Source of the DNA: a virus
DNA length: 64,000 bases
Direction: 5' to 3' (one strand)
IMG/VR virus record: IMGVR_UViG_3300021964_000024
Span: 41,815-105,814 of that record
Positions 47,039 through 51,335 of the stretch are shown piece by piece. The stretch's first letter is position 1, and each line of letters opens with the position of its first letter. The notes under the pieces are model-generated. The model worked only from the letters and a program-made list of their open reading frames with translations. It was not told the origin of the DNA and searched no databases. The position numbers and the translations under genes are program-made.

Positions 47039-47428
47039 CTAAAAAGCTACTCTCCAAGATATCCCCAATTCACTGTTCTGGTGGACTACGTAGGATCTGA
47101 TCACAATCGCACCCCACATTGCGTCATTATTATAGTTCGGAGAACCACTTCCAACCCAATAATATAGTATACCTGAAAATGCGACCTGTGTCAAGGCCAG
47201 TCTTTGAGATGAGGGATAATCCCCAAACAGGGGATTCGCCTCACGGTAGCACTGACACGGATGTTTCAGTGCGAGAGATGTTTGTTTGTAGTCTGTGTAC
47301 GCCAGTATGTTGTATGTCGTAAACAGACCCTTTTCTTTGTTAGTCCAGTCACCGAAGTGTCTGAACTCTGCATGTACTGGACTACTGATCAGCCAGAGGA
47401 TTATCCAAAAATGCTTGAATTTTGTCAT
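47039..47428 (-). CDS. exported/membrane protein
   Basis: signal peptide (VHA-), EANPL motif. Confidence 0.6.
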   Translation of the reverse strand: MTKFKHFWIILWLISSPVHAEFRHFGDWTNKEKGLFTTYNILAYTDYKQTSLALKHPCQCYREANPLFGDYPSSQRLALTQVAFSGILYYWVGSGSPNYNNDAMWGAIVIRSYVVHQNSELGISWRVAF

Positions 47429-47843
47429 TGAGTCTCTTCTCAAGGGCTTCCATTTTTTTGTCTGTATCAGTAGACAAAGCGTCCCTCTTGTTGTCAAAAC
47501 GTTCATCTGCCCTGTCGATCATATCCTCGACTTTGGTCTCTAGATCACGTCCTGCATCCTCAATTCTGTCAACGTTTCGTTCCATACGATTAAAGTCATC
47601 ACGTAGATCGTTCTTGATACTACGTGAGTAATCGATGGCTTCGTTAAGTTTTATTTCTATTTGTTTGTTACGGGATTCAATTTCGTTCACGTCAATGTTC
47701 TGGACAATCTCTTTCATGTCCATGTAGTCTTTGTAGAACTCGAAACCTGCCCATGACGCACCACCTAGTGATGACAATGCAGTCAAGATGATTGCGATTC
47801 TTCCCCCTGCGAATTTGACCCCAGCAAATTCAATCTCTGCCAT
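47382..47843 (-). CDS. membrane-anchored coiled-coil protein
   Basis: N-terminal TM, long heptads. Confidence 0.7.
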   Translation of the reverse strand: MAEIEFAGVKFAGGRIAIILTALSSLGGASWAGFEFYKDYMDMKEIVQNIDVNEIESRNKQIEIKLNEAIDYSRSIKNDLRDDFNRMERNVDRIEDAGRDLETKVEDMIDRADERFDNKRDALSTDTDKKMEALEKRLNDKIQAFLDNPLADQ

Positions 47844-47845
47844 TT

Positions 47846-48301
47846 TTACTCCTCTTCGAATTTAAGTGCACGAAGATTTGCGATTTCTTGTTTTAACTTC
47901 ATGACTTCTAGTCTTTTCTTTTCTAGTTCTAATTTGTATAGTGCGTTACAGTTGAGTCTCTCTTTAGGTGCACCCAGTGGTATGGTTATCTTCGCATACA
48001 CACCAACATCCCGCATGAAGTTGTCGTTGTAACTGGGCATCAATCCTTGATCCATACCCATACCCATTCTGTACTGATCCCATGGATCATTCTGATTCAA
48101 TATCCCCACCACACCAAACTCCACGTTTGTGGATGATCCAATTGCGGCAGAACATTCTACGTCTCCTGCTCTGACTCTATCAGACTGAAACTGTGGTGAT
48201 GACTGAGGTATCGCTAGATTAAGAGACGAAGATTGACCATAAGCTGCACCAGTCCACATCCCTACTATAAAAAACGTCAGTAATAATAAAATTTTTCTCA
48301 T
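47846..48301 (-). CDS. exported protein with Cys-flanked beta-hairpin and coiled coil
   Basis: signal peptide, NVEFGVVG...VGVYAKITIPLG. Confidence 0.7.
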   Translation of the reverse strand: MRKILLLLTFFIVGMWTGAAYGQSSSLNLAIPQSSPQFQSDRVRAGDVECSAAIGSSTNVEFGVVGILNQNDPWDQYRMGMGMDQGLMPSYNDNFMRDVGVYAKITIPLGAPKERLNCNALYKLELEKKRLEVMKLKQEIANLRALKFEEE

Positions 48302-48675
48302 TTGAATTTAGAACATATTTTTGAGGTAATCAGTGCTTTCGTTCCGGTATCCCTCAATAGTTTTGATTTCGTACAGACATAGACCGCTCTATCTCTATCC
48401 ACTCCTCTAACAAATACGGTGATCTTTTTACGTCTTTGAAATTCGACGTTAACGATCTTCTCAGCCGTAGCAAATGAGACAGGATTCATTTCTTCATCGA
48501 ACACCCCGATCTCATAGTACTCAACATCCTGTCGAGCGTTATACAAAGTCATCTCAGTTTGTAAAATACCTTCCACATAAGATTGAACCAATGTTGGATA
48601 GGTTGGTAACCACTCGTGGGCACTTGCGTACCCACTCGTGAGGAACATAAACAATGTCATGACAAACCGTTTCAT
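48298..48675 (-). CDS. exported Ig-like protein (pilus chaperone-like)
   Basis: signal ASA-, TLYN...YYEIGV, two C-terminal Cys. Confidence 0.55.
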   Translation of the reverse strand: MKRFVMTLFMFLTSGYASAHEWLPTYPTLVQSYVEGILQTEMTLYNARQDVEYYEIGVFDEEMNPVSFATAEKIVNVEFQRRKKITVFVRGVDRDRAVYVCTKSKLLRDTGTKALITSKICSKFK

Positions 48676-48678
48676 GAG

Positions 48679-49179
48679 TTAGATCGCTATACACTCTGCT
48701 TGAACAGTTGCACGGTATTGACCGGCAGGGAATGCCTTGTCATAACCATACTCTGCAGTCGAGGCAACTTTGAACCACGTTGAACCTGCGATTGTTAGAT
48801 CGATCTCAGTCACGTTATTATATAGTCTTTTCTCATTGTCATATGCAGACATGTTGACATCTGATACTTCAGCGACAGTTACTTCACCAACCCAGTTAAC
48901 AACGTCTGAAAGTGCAGGACTCTCAGTGAATGTAGTAGGGTGTGAGATTAACGCCTTGTAGTAGTCTGCTTGAATGACATCGTAACGAACGATAGGTGGT
49001 ACACCACCATTTGACATGTCAGTAGTCAACTTACTTGGAGTAGGGTTACCATAGACACCTTGAGTGTCAGTAGTGATGACACACTTGGATTCTACAGAAC
49101 CTACGATTGGAATCTCTGCTGCAACTGCCGCAGACATCATAGTACCCATTAAAAGAATGGGAAGGGTTTTTCTGAACAT
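48679..49179 (-). CDS. exported pilin/fimbrial-like protein
   Basis: signal AVA-, GSVESKCVI N-term, PAGQYRATV C-terminal strand. Confidence 0.6.
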   Translation of the reverse strand: MFRKTLPILLMGTMMSAAVAAEIPIVGSVESKCVITTDTQGVYGNPTPSKLTTDMSNGGVPPIVRYDVIQADYYKALISHPTTFTESPALSDVVNWVGEVTVAEVSDVNMSAYDNEKRLYNNVTEIDLTIAGSTWFKVASTAEYGYDKAFPAGQYRATVQAECIAI

Positions 49180-49202
49180 TGAATTGCTCCTAATTTTTAT
49201 AG

Positions 49203-50069
49203 TTAATTTTCATACTGTAGATTTACCAACTCTTGATGTAACAGTTGTTGTGAAACACTCTGTCTCCTTGCCTTTCGATTCTCAGGGAGATTAGAATCCT
49301 TCAGAACAACAGTGTCCTCGATCTTTTGAGGATCTGGTAAAGCGTCGAAGTAGTTGACTGGAATAAAGTTGAGTGCCAGCATCTCTGTATGTTTCTTTAG
49401 TGACTCTACTGCCAATAAAGAACTGTTCACTGCACCCAGTATAGACTCTAGTCTTCTATCCTCTGGTTCTTCCTCAGACATCTTCTGTCTTCTTTTACGG
49501 TCTTCTTCTTCTTCTTCATCAAGAACTGCTCTACGTTCAAGCTGTTCTTTTACGTAATCCTCATCTAAAGGATCACTGGTAGCAACGTCAATAGGATCTA
49601 CTGGTGGAATATAATCCGGACATGCCGGATCAGTCGTAACTTGATAACAACTATCATATCGATAATTGTAAACCACCAAAGGATCTTCTACGGATCCTTC
49701 TCCATCAACTTGGATCGATCCGTCACCCCAATACTCTATAGGAATTCCACCTACAGAAACTTGTTTATTGATCGTGTTGCCAGGCAACCCAGACCAATCA
49801 TCTGCTTCCCTAAAGATATAACCACCGTCAATTGCGTTCTCGTTCTGAACGTAGACAATCATGTCACTGTTCGGATCTTTGACTGCAGTATATCTGTATA
49901 CAACTCCATTCACGGTAAGTCCTGCCTGTTGGGGCAGAATGTTAGTCATAACCCAATTTAAACCAAACGCTGCCGCATTCGGTGAAGTCCCATAGACTTC
50001 CTCAGAGTAAGAGTAAGACGAGCAGACTAGCAACGCCAGCACCGCCCAACAATGTCTTAGTAGAATCAT
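49203..50069 (-). CDS. exported protein
   Basis: signal peptide, beta domain, Cys pair, charged coiled coil. Confidence 0.65.
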   Translation of the reverse strand: MILLRHCWAVLALLVCSSYSYSEEVYGTSPNAAAFGLNWVMTNILPQQAGLTVNGVVYRYTAVKDPNSDMIVYVQNENAIDGGYIFREADDWSGLPGNTINKQVSVGGIPIEYWGDGSIQVDGEGSVEDPLVVYNYRYDSCYQVTTDPACPDYIPPVDPIDVATSDPLDEDYVKEQLERRAVLDEEEEEDRKRRQKMSEEEPEDRRLESILGAVNSSLLAVESLKKHTEMLALNFIPVNYFDALPDPQKIEDTVVLKDSNLPENRKARRQSVSQQLLHQELVNLQYEN

Positions 50070-50565
50070 CCATTCCTTCCTTCTCTTTTTGTGCATCCGG
50101 AGCAAGTTCAGAGTTAACTTCCCAAGCTGCCTTTGCTTCCTGTCCGATTAGACCGTCAAACGGACAGGGGGTTCCTGCGTTCATCATAGCGTCAAAAACT
50201 CGTTTGTCTTGACACATAACTGATACTGCTGCAACTTTCATGCCCATATCGAACAAAGTCTTAGCATTCTTCAATCTTTCACAATTTTCATCCACTACTT
50301 GAGTACCCGTAGAGATACCAAGTATTTGGGTTTGAATCGCACCCGCAACTCCGAAAGTACAGAGATCAGAATTGGAAGTGTTGATTGTAGGTGAAATGGC
50401 AGAAGCAGGGGGCGACTTCAGAGTCGTCTCTGTGCTACCATTAGTGGTTACTGTTGATTCAGTAACAATAGGTACTACACTATTTTCTCCTTCGGCAGGA
50501 GCGTCCTGTGCATATGAGTGAGATGCCAATAATATAAGCATCCAAAAGGAAATGATGTAACGCAT
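50002..50565 (-). CDS. exported Cys-rich protein with C-terminal anchor
   Basis: signal SYA-, C..GVAGAIQTQILGISTG..C, C-terminal TM. Confidence 0.7.
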   Translation of the reverse strand: MRYIISFWMLILLASHSYAQDAPAEGENSVVPIVTESTVTTNGSTETTLKSPPASAISPTINTSNSDLCTFGVAGAIQTQILGISTGTQVVDENCERLKNAKTLFDMGMKVAAVSVMCQDKRVFDAMMNAGTPCPFDGLIGQEAKAAWEVNSELAPDAQKEKEGMDDSTKTLLGGAGVASLLVLLLL

Positions 50566-50598
50566 AAAATAAGTCCCATGTATGTTAATATACAAGGG

Positions 50599-50606
50599 TA
50601 TTTATA
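50599..50606 (-). promoter_or_regulatory. T4-type late promoter
   Basis: TATAAATA heading the exported-protein operon. Confidence 0.75.
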
Positions 50607-50651
50607 CTTTGGTTTTCTCTAAAAGACGAAAAGTGTCAATTAAATGACACC

Positions 50652-51335
50652 CTAGATAAGATTTCTCTGTACCAATTCACGGTAATTTTTAATCTTCTCT
50701 CTCTTTGGGCCTTGGGGTGTGACCTTGGTGCGAATGTGAATGAAGTTTGCACGTTCTACATCGGGTTCAAACGAAGAGTAGTTCCACATCTGACCATTTA
50801 GGTATATGTCTTTGTCGGTGTGTTTCATACCTAACTTGTTCGCTAAGCAGTGCATCACACCTTCATCATGGTAGCGTCGAGCAAATGCCATAACAATATC
50901 TTCGGTCAATGCCTCACGAAACTTCTGTCGGATCTCACGTGATAATCGAAACACTGACCCACCCCAGTAAGGTGCGTCCAAGGATCCAAGGTCTGGATAA
51001 ATCTCGACAAGTCTCTGTCGCAACGATGTCTGGACTCCGGTATGTCTACCAATACCCACATCGTCTGTGAAGATGTTTTGATTACAAGACTTTGCGACAA
51101 ACATGTCTGCGTCAACCATGACAACAGTGTCATATTTGTCATACTTCTCATCAAGGTAGATAAGTTTCTGGCACGGGTAGTCTAGTTTGTGAGCAATTTT
51201 TTTCATGAATACAACACCACGAATAAACTCGTAGTCTGCACCAATCCTTTCTGCATATCCTTTGATTGACTCAGTAGACTTCTCTACCAGTTCATTCATC
51301 GGCCCTGCCCAATGTTGTAAAATTATGTTCTTCAT
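50652..51335 (-). CDS. glycosyltransferase (GT-A)
   Basis: MVDADM, HDEG, FIHI. Confidence 0.75.
   Translation of the reverse strand: MKNIILQHWAGPMNELVEKSTESIKGYAERIGADYEFIRGVVFMKKIAHKLDYPCQKLIYLDEKYDKYDTVVMVDADMFVAKSCNQNIFTDDVGIGRHTGVQTSLRQRLVEIYPDLGSLDAPYWGGSVFRLSREIRQKFREALTEDIVMAFARRYHDEGVMHCLANKLGMKHTDKDIYLNGQMWNYSSFEPDVERANFIHIRTKVTPQGPKREKIKNYRELVQRNLI

What the first reader, a model, noticed from the sequence alone, without database searches (positions are those of the whole stretch)
47382..50606. Late-promoter operon of six exported proteins resembling a minimal pilus/pore apparatus
Seen: TATAAATA at 50599 precedes six tightly linked genes, each with a Sec signal or TM anchor. They are a Cys-flanked beta-hairpin protein, a beta/coiled-coil protein, a pilin-like subunit (V.SKC.I N-term, PAGQYRATV final strand as in chaperone-usher/Csu-type pilins), a small Ig-like chaperone-like protein, a second Cys-flanked amphipathic beta-hairpin protein and a TM coiled coil. 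Virion parts assemble in the cytoplasm and do not need signal peptides, and no usher is present. Inference: a phage-encoded envelope-spanning structure built on the infected cell late in infection, possibly using oligomeric hairpin barrels instead of an usher. Possible roles are adhesion to new hosts, exclusion, or lysis control.
Basis: partly seen in the sequence, partly recalled or inferred. Interest (0 to 1): 0.82.

Follow-up and report, generated by a model that had tools for sequence, protein, structure and literature searches.

The report
Phage late exported envelope cassette, usher-less
An uncultured marine T4-like phage switches on, late in infection, six tightly packed genes for proteins sent to the host cell envelope; one folds like the front half of a pilus chaperone and its neighbour looks like a pilus subunit, but there is no outer-membrane pore, and three of the six recur beside the cell-bursting genes of cultured ocean phages, so this is an undescribed envelope assembly and not a classical pilus.

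Summary
TATAAATA at 50599-50606(-), just after a terminator-like hairpin, precedes six packed minus-strand genes (g1-g6). g1-g5 have signal peptides and an even number of invariant Cys. g6 has an N-terminal TM and a coiled coil. The order g1-g6 is the same in all 120 related viral and metagenome loci.

- g4: a confident model (pLDDT 90) matches the N-domains of chaperone-usher chaperones best (DraB, PapD, Caf1M, SafB; Foldseek E 1e-4, VIA Z 10.6).
- g3: pilin-like only by language-model and ESM-fold leads (SCPU 0.94; DUF4402 TM 0.63). Profile comparisons fail and my own model was poor.
- No usher is present. Hairpin barrels were not tested.

New here: the block is two modules. The trio g1-g2-g6 occurs without g3-g5 in cultured pelagiphages, roseophages and a freshwater podovirus. 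In some it lies next to an endolysin or holin gene. One contig with the full cassette has canonical Rz/Rz1 spanins and an endolysin right after g6.

Best reading: a periplasmic, membrane-tethered assembly with a chaperone-subunit pair. It probably acts on the envelope around lysis and does not build a surface pilus. Function is untested.

This scan has reported the same cassette on other genomes several times, with similar verdicts.

The parts
50630..50653 (-). Terminator-like hairpin that closes the upstream gene (50652-51335)
   Evidence: 9-pair stem followed by a T-rich tail, directly before the late promoter.
50599..50606 (-). T4-type late promoter TATAAATA
   Evidence: 10 copies in the window against 2.15 expected. 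Kept upstream of g1 in the T4-like relatives.
50002..50565 (-). g1, 187 aa: signal peptide, Ser/Thr-rich stretch, very conserved 4-Cys periplasmic core, C-terminal TM
   Evidence: 65 invariant columns. phrog_20531 at 8.5e-16. Homologues in pelagiphages, roseophages and a freshwater podovirus.
49203..50069 (-). g2, 288 aa: signal peptide (coded in the overlap with g1's TM), beta-rich N-domain with 2 Cys, acidic linker, conserved C-terminal helices ending LQYE
   Evidence: The same architecture is seen in HTVC115P gp53, HTVC023P gp46, HTVC033P gp45 and Mosig_00201.
48679..49179 (-). g3, 166 aa: signal peptide and all-beta subunit with Cys33 and Cys163; pilin-like (SCPU/DUF4402-like) lead
   Evidence: My own model was poor. 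Profile tests were negative.
48298..48675 (-). g4, 125 aa: signal peptide and a single PapD-like (MSP) Ig domain. The mature N-terminus is an invariant His; Cys101 and Cys121 lie on the last two strands
   Evidence: (pLDDT 89.9).
47846..48301 (-). g5, 151 aa: signal peptide, two amphipathic beta-strands between Cys50 and Cys118, C-terminal amphipathic helix ending LKFE
   Evidence: phrog_37374 at 2.8e-6 over residues 97-132.
47382..47843 (-). g6, 153 aa: N-terminal TM, periplasmic coiled coil, invariant C-terminal NPL (i-spanin-like architecture)
   Evidence: Homologues in HTVC115P gp49 (3.5e-37), CRP-207 gp73, CRP-810 gp51 and MW202481.
47039..47431 (-). g7, 130 aa: lineage-specific seventh exported protein that overlaps the end of g6 by 50 nt
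   Evidence: found only in loci L002-L006. No lipobox.

Best explanation
The block is one late transcription unit. It sends six proteins into the host envelope and is built from two modules.

Module A is g1, g2 and g6. It is a membrane-tethered set that faces the periplasm.
- g6 is held in the inner membrane by an N-terminal helix and carries a coiled coil.
- g1 is exported and held by a C-terminal helix.
- g2 is a secreted beta-domain protein with an acidic linker and C-terminal helices.
This trio is widespread in aquatic phages. In some cultured phages it lies beside lysis genes.

Module B is g3, g4 and g5, inserted between g2 and g6.
- g4 is a one-domain PapD-like 'half chaperone'.
- g3 is a two-Cys beta-sandwich subunit resembling SCPU/DUF4402 pilins.
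- g5 is a hairpin protein with a C-terminal helix like that of g2.

Proposed course, step by step:
1. Late transcription. The promoter and its conservation are shown.
2. Sec export and disulfide formation. Inferred from the signal peptides and the paired invariant Cys.
3. g4 caps g3 by donor-strand complementation. Inferred from the fold and from gene adjacency only.
4. With no usher, the product stays in the periplasm or on the envelope, tied to module A through the helices of g2, g5 and g6. Inferred.
5. It acts on the envelope around lysis and does not form a classical surface pilus. Inferred from gene neighbourhoods.

The actual function is unknown.
For: - Promoter and operon structure.
- Export signatures and paired Cys.
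- The order g1-g6 is kept in 120 loci.
- g4 fold: the model has pLDDT 89.9. Foldseek against the PDB gives ranks 1-10 that are all chaperone-usher chaperones (DraB 1.0e-4, PapD, Caf1M, FaeE), with SafB, FimC and CsuC below them. VIA gives Z 10.6 SafB, 10.5 FimC complex, 10.2 YadV, 9.3 PapD and 9.0 CsuC, each aligned to the chaperone's N-domain.
- g4 language-model lead: nearest named cluster is PapD_N at 0.83.
- g3: Atlas features give SCPU 0.94 with 174 shared features; the Atlas model has TM 0.63 to a DUF4402 cluster.
- Bacterial DUF4402 genes sit with PapD_N-like and usher-sized genes.
- Two modules: g1, a g2-like protein and a g6-like protein occur without g3-g5 in HTVC115P, HTVC023P, HTVC033P, Mosig, CRP-207, CRP-810 and MW202481.
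- Lysis genes next to the trio: peptidase M15 in HTVC023P, a lysozyme gene in HTVC033P, and a holin-like gene plus a lysozyme gene in MW202481.
- Rz/Rz1-like spanins and an endolysin follow g6 in the full-cassette contig L027.
- No usher.
Against: - g3 and g4 are not detectable sequence members of the SCPU, DUF4402 or PapD_N families. An apparent 87-90% hhalign hit of g3 to DUF4402 vanished once signal peptides were removed.
- My own g3 model was poor (pLDDT 55) and its fold searches were meaningless. The pilin fold therefore rests on one source.
- PapD-like/MSP domains also occur in proteins that are not chaperones. g4 lacks the second domain that forms the subunit-binding cleft.
- No docking was computed.
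- In this T4-like window no lysis gene lies near the cassette, so the link to lysis is by neighbourhood in other phages only.
Confidence: 0.45

Rival explanations
1. The six proteins build an usher-less pilus or pore on the infected cell. g4 chaperones g3. Oligomers of the hairpin proteins g5 and/or g1 form the outer-membrane conduit in place of an usher. The fibre serves adhesion or exclusion.
For: g4 has a PapD-like fold and g3 has pilin-like leads. g5 has two strands with strictly alternating hydrophobic residues between two invariant Cys, plus a C-terminal helix. No usher is present. The order g1-g6 is the same in every locus.
Against: No evidence that g5 or g1 oligomerises or inserts into the outer membrane. 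g1, g2 and g6 occur without any pilin or chaperone in cultured phages, so they are not a dedicated pilus machine. No usher-free chaperone-subunit fibre that crosses the outer membrane is known (my own knowledge). A late-expressed fibre would have little time to act before lysis.
Confidence: 0.15
2. The cassette, or at least the trio g1-g2-g6, is a non-canonical outer-membrane-disrupting device or a lysis-timing device. g6 would act as an i-spanin-like inner-membrane coiled coil. g1 and g2 would link it to the wall or outer membrane. g3-g5 would be accessories.
For: g6 has i-spanin architecture: N-terminal TM, coiled coil and a conserved C-terminus. The g1/g2 overlap recalls overlapped spanin genes. 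The trio lies next to an endolysin or holin gene in HTVC023P, HTVC033P and MW202481. In L027 the full cassette lies next to spanins and an endolysin. Expression is late.
Against: None of the six is a lipoprotein. Only 9 of 61 loci have a lipoprotein gene after g6, and the window is not among them. No PHROG or Pfam spanin match was found. L027 carries canonical Rz/Rz1 as well as the cassette. No lysis genes lie nearby in this window.
Confidence: 0.2
3. A moron-like cassette for remodelling the cell surface: masking receptors, excluding superinfecting phages, or keeping progeny from sticking to cell debris. This would be comparable in logic to T5 Llp or lambda Lom/Bor.
For: In podovirus-like carriers the cassette lies between tail-fibre-like genes and lysis genes, a typical moron site. 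It is accessory: the closest cultured relative, C48C1, lacks it. All products are exported.
Against: Exclusion genes are usually early, whereas this unit has a late promoter. Six co-conserved genes is a lot for masking a receptor. There is no similarity to any known exclusion protein.
Confidence: 0.12
4. The proteins are ordinary virion or fibre-assembly parts, and the N-terminal hydrophobic stretches are not export signals.
For: Late promoter. The cassette lies directly after tail-fibre-like genes in several podovirus-like contigs and in HTVC115P.
Against: Five families keep a signal-peptide-like N-terminus whose sequence is free to vary and which is followed by an AxA-type site. Each has an even number of invariant Cys. 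Two members have membrane anchors. The PapD-like fold is periplasmic in bacteria. No structural PHROG matched.
Confidence: 0.05

Closest known systems
Chaperone-usher pilus pathway, chaperone-subunit pairs (PapD-PapK, FimC-FimA, and the FGL type Caf1M-Caf1, SafB-SafA, DraB; archaic CsuC-CsuA/B)
   Same: g4 has the PapD-like Ig fold of the chaperone's subunit-binding N-domain. Its two invariant Cys lie on the last two strands, either side of a 13-residue loop; FGL chaperones have an F1-G1 disulfide, which I state from my own knowledge. g4 lies next to a secreted beta-sandwich subunit (g3) with an alternating N-terminal strand and a C-terminal GxY strand.
   Different: g4 has one domain instead of two, and no Pfam or profile match. 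No usher is present anywhere. The genes are carried by lytic phages behind a late promoter, together with four other exported proteins unknown to that pathway.
SCPU (PF05229) and DUF4402 (PF14352) pilin-type families
   Same: Size, signal peptide, an N-terminal strand followed by Cys (in SCPU), and a C-terminal P-x-G-x-Y strand. Language-model features give SCPU 0.94, and the ESM model has TM 0.63 to DUF4402. In the Bacteroidota clusters examined, DUF4402 genes sit with a PapD_N-like gene.
   Different: No HMM or profile-profile signal once signal peptides are removed (probability 1-3%), whereas SCPU against DUF4402 gives 92.7%. g3 has a Cys three residues from its C-terminus. The g3 family is almost confined to viral contigs.
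Two-component spanins (lambda Rz/Rz1, T7 gp18.5/18.7, T4 PseT.3/PseT.2)
   Same: g6 has the architecture of an i-spanin. The genes overlap, are expressed late, and in other phages lie beside endolysin, holin or spanin genes.
   Different: There is no outer-membrane lipoprotein partner in the window and no family match. Canonical spanins occur alongside the cassette in L027.

Membership tests
PapD-like chaperone of the chaperone-usher pathway (PF00345 + PF02753) | N-terminal PapD-like Ig fold | tested here: met
   Model pLDDT 89.9. Foldseek ranks 1-10 are all chaperone-usher chaperones, E 1e-4 to 9e-4, TMq 0.54-0.64. VIA Z 10.6-8.2 for SafB, FimC, YadV, CfaA, PapD, FaeE, CsuC, CupB2 and EcpB, alongside MSP domains at Z 9.5-10.
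PapD-like chaperone of the chaperone-usher pathway (PF00345 + PF02753) | Sequence match to PapD_N | tested here: not met
   No Pfam hit at E<=1. hhalign of the g4 profile against 13 bacterial chaperone N-domains gave probability 2.9%, E 0.015. The Atlas feature score of 0.83 is only a lead.
PapD-like chaperone of the chaperone-usher pathway (PF00345 + PF02753) | Second (C-terminal) domain that forms the subunit-binding cleft | tested here: not met
   Mature g4 is about 105 aa and forms one domain. All 139 aligned homologues have this length.
PapD-like chaperone of the chaperone-usher pathway (PF00345 + PF02753) | Basic residues that anchor the subunit C-terminus (Arg8/Lys112 of PapD) and a donor G1 strand | tested here: inconclusive
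   R48, H20, Y26, N46 and Y99 are invariant, and the last strand reads I-C-S-K-[IF]-K. No complex was modelled.
PapD-like chaperone of the chaperone-usher pathway (PF00345 + PF02753) | An usher gene in the same cluster | tested here: not met
   No PF00577 match in the 105.8-kb contig at E<=1, with E. coli ringing as control. None of the 120 related loci has an usher-sized gene inside the cassette.
SCPU / DUF4402 pilin-type subunits | HMM or profile membership | tested here: not met
   Pfam found none for g3. The best remote relative, P0226, gave SCPU E 1.5. hhalign of mature regions gave probability 1.5-2.9% against SCPU and DUF4402, while the control SCPU against DUF4402 gave 92.7%.
SCPU / DUF4402 pilin-type subunits | Pilin-type beta-sandwich fold | tested here: inconclusive
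   The Atlas's own model (pLDDT 0.84) has TM 0.63 to a DUF4402 cluster over 150 residues. My AF2 model had pLDDT 55, and its searches gave nothing usable.
SCPU / DUF4402 pilin-type subunits | Polymerisation by donor-strand exchange | not testable with these tools
   No multimer prediction was available. Only the alternating I-x-G-x-V N-terminal strand and the GxY C-terminal strand are visible in the sequence.
Two-component spanin | i-spanin: N-terminal TM plus periplasmic coiled coil | tested here: met
   g6 alignment. Only coiled-coil-type weak matches were found.
Two-component spanin | Adjacent or embedded outer-membrane lipoprotein (o-spanin) | tested here: not met
   No lipobox ORF within or after g6 in the window. 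Only 9 of 61 distinct loci have one.
Two-component spanin | Family match to Rz/Rz1 | tested here: not met
   PHROG Rz-like spanin matched only 3 of 17 members, at E 0.36. True Rz/Rz1 matches (2e-14, 3e-13) belong to the two genes after g6 in L027.
T4-type late transcription unit | TATAAATA shortly upstream of the first gene | tested here: met

The most novel reading that the evidence does not exclude
Aquatic phages of several morphotypes share an undescribed way of building a disulfide-bonded structure in the periplasm of the dying cell. Its parts would be a membrane-tethered coiled-coil trio (g1, g2, g6), onto which some lineages have grafted a one-domain chaperone, a strand-exchanging subunit and a hairpin protein (g3-g5). 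Together they would form an usher-independent fibre or lattice that controls how and when the envelope fails, or what the burst cell leaves behind.
Probability: 0.3. Interest if true: 0.8.

Novelty: new variant of a known kind. Interest (0 to 1): 0.62.

Why it matters
The g3 and g4 families each comprise more than 1,600 clusters at 90% identity in public metagenomes. Parts of the cassette occur in phages of SAR11 and of roseobacters, among the most abundant bacteria in the sea. No Pfam, NCBIfam or PDB sequence match was found for any of the six proteins, only two PHROG families of unknown function, and the paper searches found no description of it.

If the chaperone-subunit reading is right, phages have taken half of the bacterial pilus-assembly mechanism and run it without an usher. 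That would be a new use of donor-strand complementation.

If the link to lysis is right, the trio could fill a gap in how these marine phages open the host envelope. The trio lies next to an endolysin or holin gene in cultured pelagiphages and a freshwater podovirus.

The trio sits in cultured, tractable phage-host pairs, so both ideas can be tested.

Tried and rejected
- Pfam, NCBIfam and PDB sequence or profile searches of all six proteins gave nothing meaningful. PHROGs matched only three families of unknown function.
- AF2 of g3 with a 20-sequence alignment gave pLDDT 55. Foldseek and VIA on that model gave no usable match.
- hhalign of g3 against DUF4402 first gave 87-90% probability. I reject this as an artefact of aligned signal peptides, because it fell to 1-3% on the mature regions.
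- An exhaustive HMMER search with the g3 profile found only 110 representatives, none carrying a Pfam family. A profile of the five most remote relatives found 9 proteins, none annotated, so no transitive link to SCPU exists.
- Bacterial genomes: only 6 MAG contigs from unrelated phyla carry g3; I read these as mis-binned phage contigs. The g4 profile found nothing significant in 400 genomes of the class of G002, the MAG titled Pseudomonadales. I therefore could not confirm earlier notes that place a related core in Vibrio chromosomes.
- tblastn of g3, g4 and g5 against 50,697 phage records gave no match.
- No paralogy among the six families.
- The GenBank labels 'OmpA family', 'tonB' and 'carbohydrate binding' on g1-like and g2-like genes got no Pfam hit at E<=0.1. 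The 'lysozyme' labels on the g6-like genes of CRP-207 and CRP-810 sit on TM plus coiled-coil proteins that match the g6 profile.
- The first metagenome scan, with P0196, found nothing.
- Loci from the unpublished genome G042 were left out of all alignments.

Full report
**Source and setting.** The window is bases 41815-105814 of a 105.8-kb IMG/VR viral contig that CheckV rates 62% complete. It is a T4-like phage.
- It carries a gp43-type DNA polymerase, a gp41-type helicase and a ribonucleotide reductase.
- The polymerase is 77% identical to that of Phage C48C1 (OQ984149, Kyanoviridae) and about 49% identical to those of cyanophages.
- C48C1 shares gene order around the polymerase and helicase but lacks the cassette. 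The cassette is therefore accessory.

**Observation.**
- TATAAATA lies at 50599-50606(-), 33 nt before the ATG of g1. The window has 10 copies against 2.15 expected.
- A terminator-like hairpin at 50653-50630(-) closes the preceding gene.
- Six minus-strand genes follow with overlaps or gaps of at most 23 nt.
- g1's C-terminal membrane helix and g2's signal peptide are coded by the same 68 nt in two frames. This overlap is kept in all relatives.
- A seventh exported gene, g7 (47039-47431), overlaps the end of g6 but is found only in close relatives.

**Evidence for export.**
- In g1-g5 the N-terminal 20-25 residues are hydrophobic in every homologue but free to vary. Conservation starts just after an AxA-type site.
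- The N-termini of different families align with one another in hhalign, and nothing else does.
- The mature parts hold 4, 2, 2, 2 and 2 invariant Cys. This fits disulfide formation in the periplasm, by inference from established knowledge of DsbA substrates.
- g6 has an N-terminal TM, a coiled coil and an invariant C-terminal NPL.
- g1 has a conserved C-terminal TM.

**Conservation.**
- The order g1-g6 is identical in 40 IMG/VR loci, down to 35-55% identity.
- It is also identical in 80 JGI metagenome loci. Fifty are complete and the rest are cut by contig ends.
- The g3 and g4 families have 1,602 and 1,728 clusters at 90% identity.
- The late promoter is kept in the T4-like carriers. More distant carriers have sigma-70-like promoters (L029, L034) or none obvious. 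In L025, L027, L033, L034 and L038 the cassette follows large genes whose N-termini read like tail fibres, though PHROGs matched only one of the four tested, as a virion structural protein. The block therefore moves between phage types.
- In 185,579 species genomes only six MAG contigs carry g3, and they come from unrelated phyla. I read these as phage contigs.

**What the parts are: g4.**
- With a 139-sequence alignment, AF2 gave pLDDT 89.9.
- Foldseek against the PDB returned chaperone-usher chaperones only at ranks 1-10 (DraB 1.0e-4, PapD, Caf1M, FaeE). SafB, FimC, SfaE and CsuC came below them, mixed with MSP domains, which belong to the same superfamily.
- VIA-align, which does not rely on Foldseek, gave Z 10.6 for SafB, 10.5 for FimC, 10.2 for YadV, 9.3 for PapD and 9.0 for CsuC. 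Each was aligned to the chaperone's N-domain.
- The Atlas language-model lead was also PapD_N, at 0.83.
- g4 has only one domain and no Pfam hit. Its profile does not match bacterial chaperone N-domains (probability 2.9%).
- The two invariant Cys (101, 121) lie on the last two strands, either side of a 13-residue loop. FGL chaperones have an F1-G1 disulfide; I state this from my own knowledge, and the resemblance is a lead.
- The mature N-terminus is an invariant His in the motif H-x-x-T-P-x-Y-P. I cannot explain this.

**What the parts are: g3.**
- The Atlas holds a confident ESM model (pLDDT 0.84). Its nearest named structure cluster is DUF4402 (TM 0.63 over 150 residues), and its features point to SCPU (0.94, 174 shared features).
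- I collected SCPU and DUF4402 proteins from genomes and compared profiles. An apparent 87-90% hit to DUF4402 was due to signal peptides. On mature regions the probability is 1-3%, while SCPU against DUF4402 gives 92.7%.
- The exhaustive profile search found a tight family of 110 representatives. The few remote full-length relatives keep the same N-terminal ..S-C-[ST].. strand and the C-terminal FP-x-G-x-Y...C, but none carries a Pfam family.
- My own model of g3 was poor.
- g3 is therefore pilin-like by one line of evidence plus motif resemblance. It is not a shown member of either family.
- In Bacteroidota, DUF4402 genes lie with a PapD_N-like gene and an 823-956-aa gene. Having g3-like and g4-like genes side by side thus mirrors a real bacterial arrangement, minus the large gene.

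**Two modules.**
- The profiles of g1, g2 and g6 find homologues in cultured phages that have no g3-g5:
  - HTVC115P gp54, gp53 and gp49 (g6-like at 3.5e-37);
  - HTVC023P gp45, gp46 and gp48;
  - HTVC033P gp46, gp45 and gp44;
  - Mosig_00202, 00201 and 00200;
  - CRP-207 gp75, gp74 and gp73;
  - CRP-810 gp53, gp52 and gp51;
  - the freshwater podovirus MW202481.
  The g6-like proteins of HTVC023P, HTVC033P and Mosig were recognised by reading their sequences; the g6 profile did not reach them.
- The g2-like proteins share one architecture: signal peptide, beta-rich N-domain, long acidic linker and conserved C-terminal helices.
- The g6-like proteins all end in NPL.
- Lysis genes lie next to the trio in several cases:
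  - peptidase M15 directly after the g6-like gene in HTVC023P;
  - a lysozyme gene three genes upstream in HTVC033P;
  - a 165-aa three-TM holin-like gene and a lysozyme gene after it in MW202481.
- In L027, a non-T4 contig with the full six-gene cassette, g6 is followed by Rz-like (2.2e-14) and Rz1-like (3.4e-13) spanins, an endonuclease and an endolysin (7e-74).
- In this window no lysis gene is near the cassette. The neighbours are a thymidylate synthase, a phosphohydrolase and unknowns.

**Weighing the readings.**
- The chaperone-subunit pair is the best-anchored mechanistic element, but only at fold level.
- With no usher, and with g1, g2 and g6 working elsewhere without a pilin, a dedicated surface-pilus machine is unlikely.
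- A pure spanin role is weakened by three things: none of the six is a lipoprotein, with a lipoprotein after g6 in only 9 of 61 loci; no family match was found; and canonical spanins co-occur with the cassette.
- I therefore favour a periplasmic, membrane-tethered assembly that acts on the envelope around lysis. I give it moderate confidence (0.45), and its function is untested.

**Earlier notes of this scan.** After I had reached this reading I looked the cassette up.
- The same cassette has been reported repeatedly on other genomes, namely T4-like marine and freshwater phages and T5-like Vibrio phages.
- The verdicts were the same: observation confirmed, first reading partly supported, closest known FGL-type chaperone-usher pairs.
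- One note says the cassette lies beside lysis genes in cultured relatives, and one says the block is two modules. My own tests agree with both.
- Notes that place a related three-gene core in Vibrio and sphingomonad chromosomes could not be confirmed with my g4 profile in 400 genomes of the class of G002, the MAG titled Pseudomonadales, or by tblastn against phages. They may concern relatives more remote than my profile can reach.

**Limits.**
- Signal peptides were judged from the alignments, not with SignalP.

Noticed in passing
window 50002-50069 (-): The same 68 nt encode g1's C-terminal membrane helix (KTLLGGAGVASLLVLLLL) in one frame and g2's signal peptide (MILLRHCWAVLALLVCSSYSYS) in another. 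An overlap of 66-100 nt is kept in all related loci.
   Followed up: partly
L125 5219-5641 (CRP-810 gp51) and L210 3292-3873 (CRP-207 gp73): These genes are labelled 'lysozyme' or 'putative lysozyme' in GenBank, but the proteins are g6-like: an N-terminal TM and a coiled coil, ending NPL. By eye they show no lysozyme domain. The labels 'OmpA family' (CRP-810 gp53), 'tonB' (MW202481) and 'carbohydrate binding' (HTVC033P gp45) get no Pfam hit at E<=0.1.
   Followed up: partly
L041 7343-8340; L018 7417-7884: Some lineages carry insertions between g5 and g6. One has a 240-aa class-3-lipase-like protein (GHSLGG motif) plus a 91-aa TM protein. Another has a 155-aa protein anchored by its C-terminus.
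   Followed up: no
L018 8377-8760; also L006, L007, L009, L011, L015, L030: A lipoprotein family of about 127 aa (lipobox, then ..S.WDDNEAAG.. or ..YDDNES..) follows g6 directly in 9 of 61 distinct loci. It matches no PHROG. The window has the unrelated g7 in that position.
   Followed up: partly
L105 and L106 (Bacteroidota genomes G319, G303): DUF4402 genes lie in clusters of 4-5 paralogues. Each cluster also has a 281-291-aa PapD_N-like protein (21.9 bits against a cut-off of 23) and an 823-956-aa protein with a CarboxypepD_reg domain. This looks like an unannotated chaperone-usher-like system. No paper in the library mentions DUF4402.
   Followed up: partly
window 48616-48618 (g4 residue 20): The first residue of mature g4 is an invariant His in the motif H-x-[WFML]-T-P-x-Y-P, across 139 homologues. 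An N-terminal His recalls the copper-binding 'histidine brace' of proteins such as LPMOs, CopC and YcnI (my own knowledge). A Cu-only SOD subunit (8aca) appears among the weaker fold matches (18% identity).
   Followed up: no
window 47039-47431 (-): g7 is a 130-aa exported protein that ends ..ISWRVAF, with a weak DUF5658 match (E 0.029). It is found only in the closest relatives (L002-L006).
   Followed up: no
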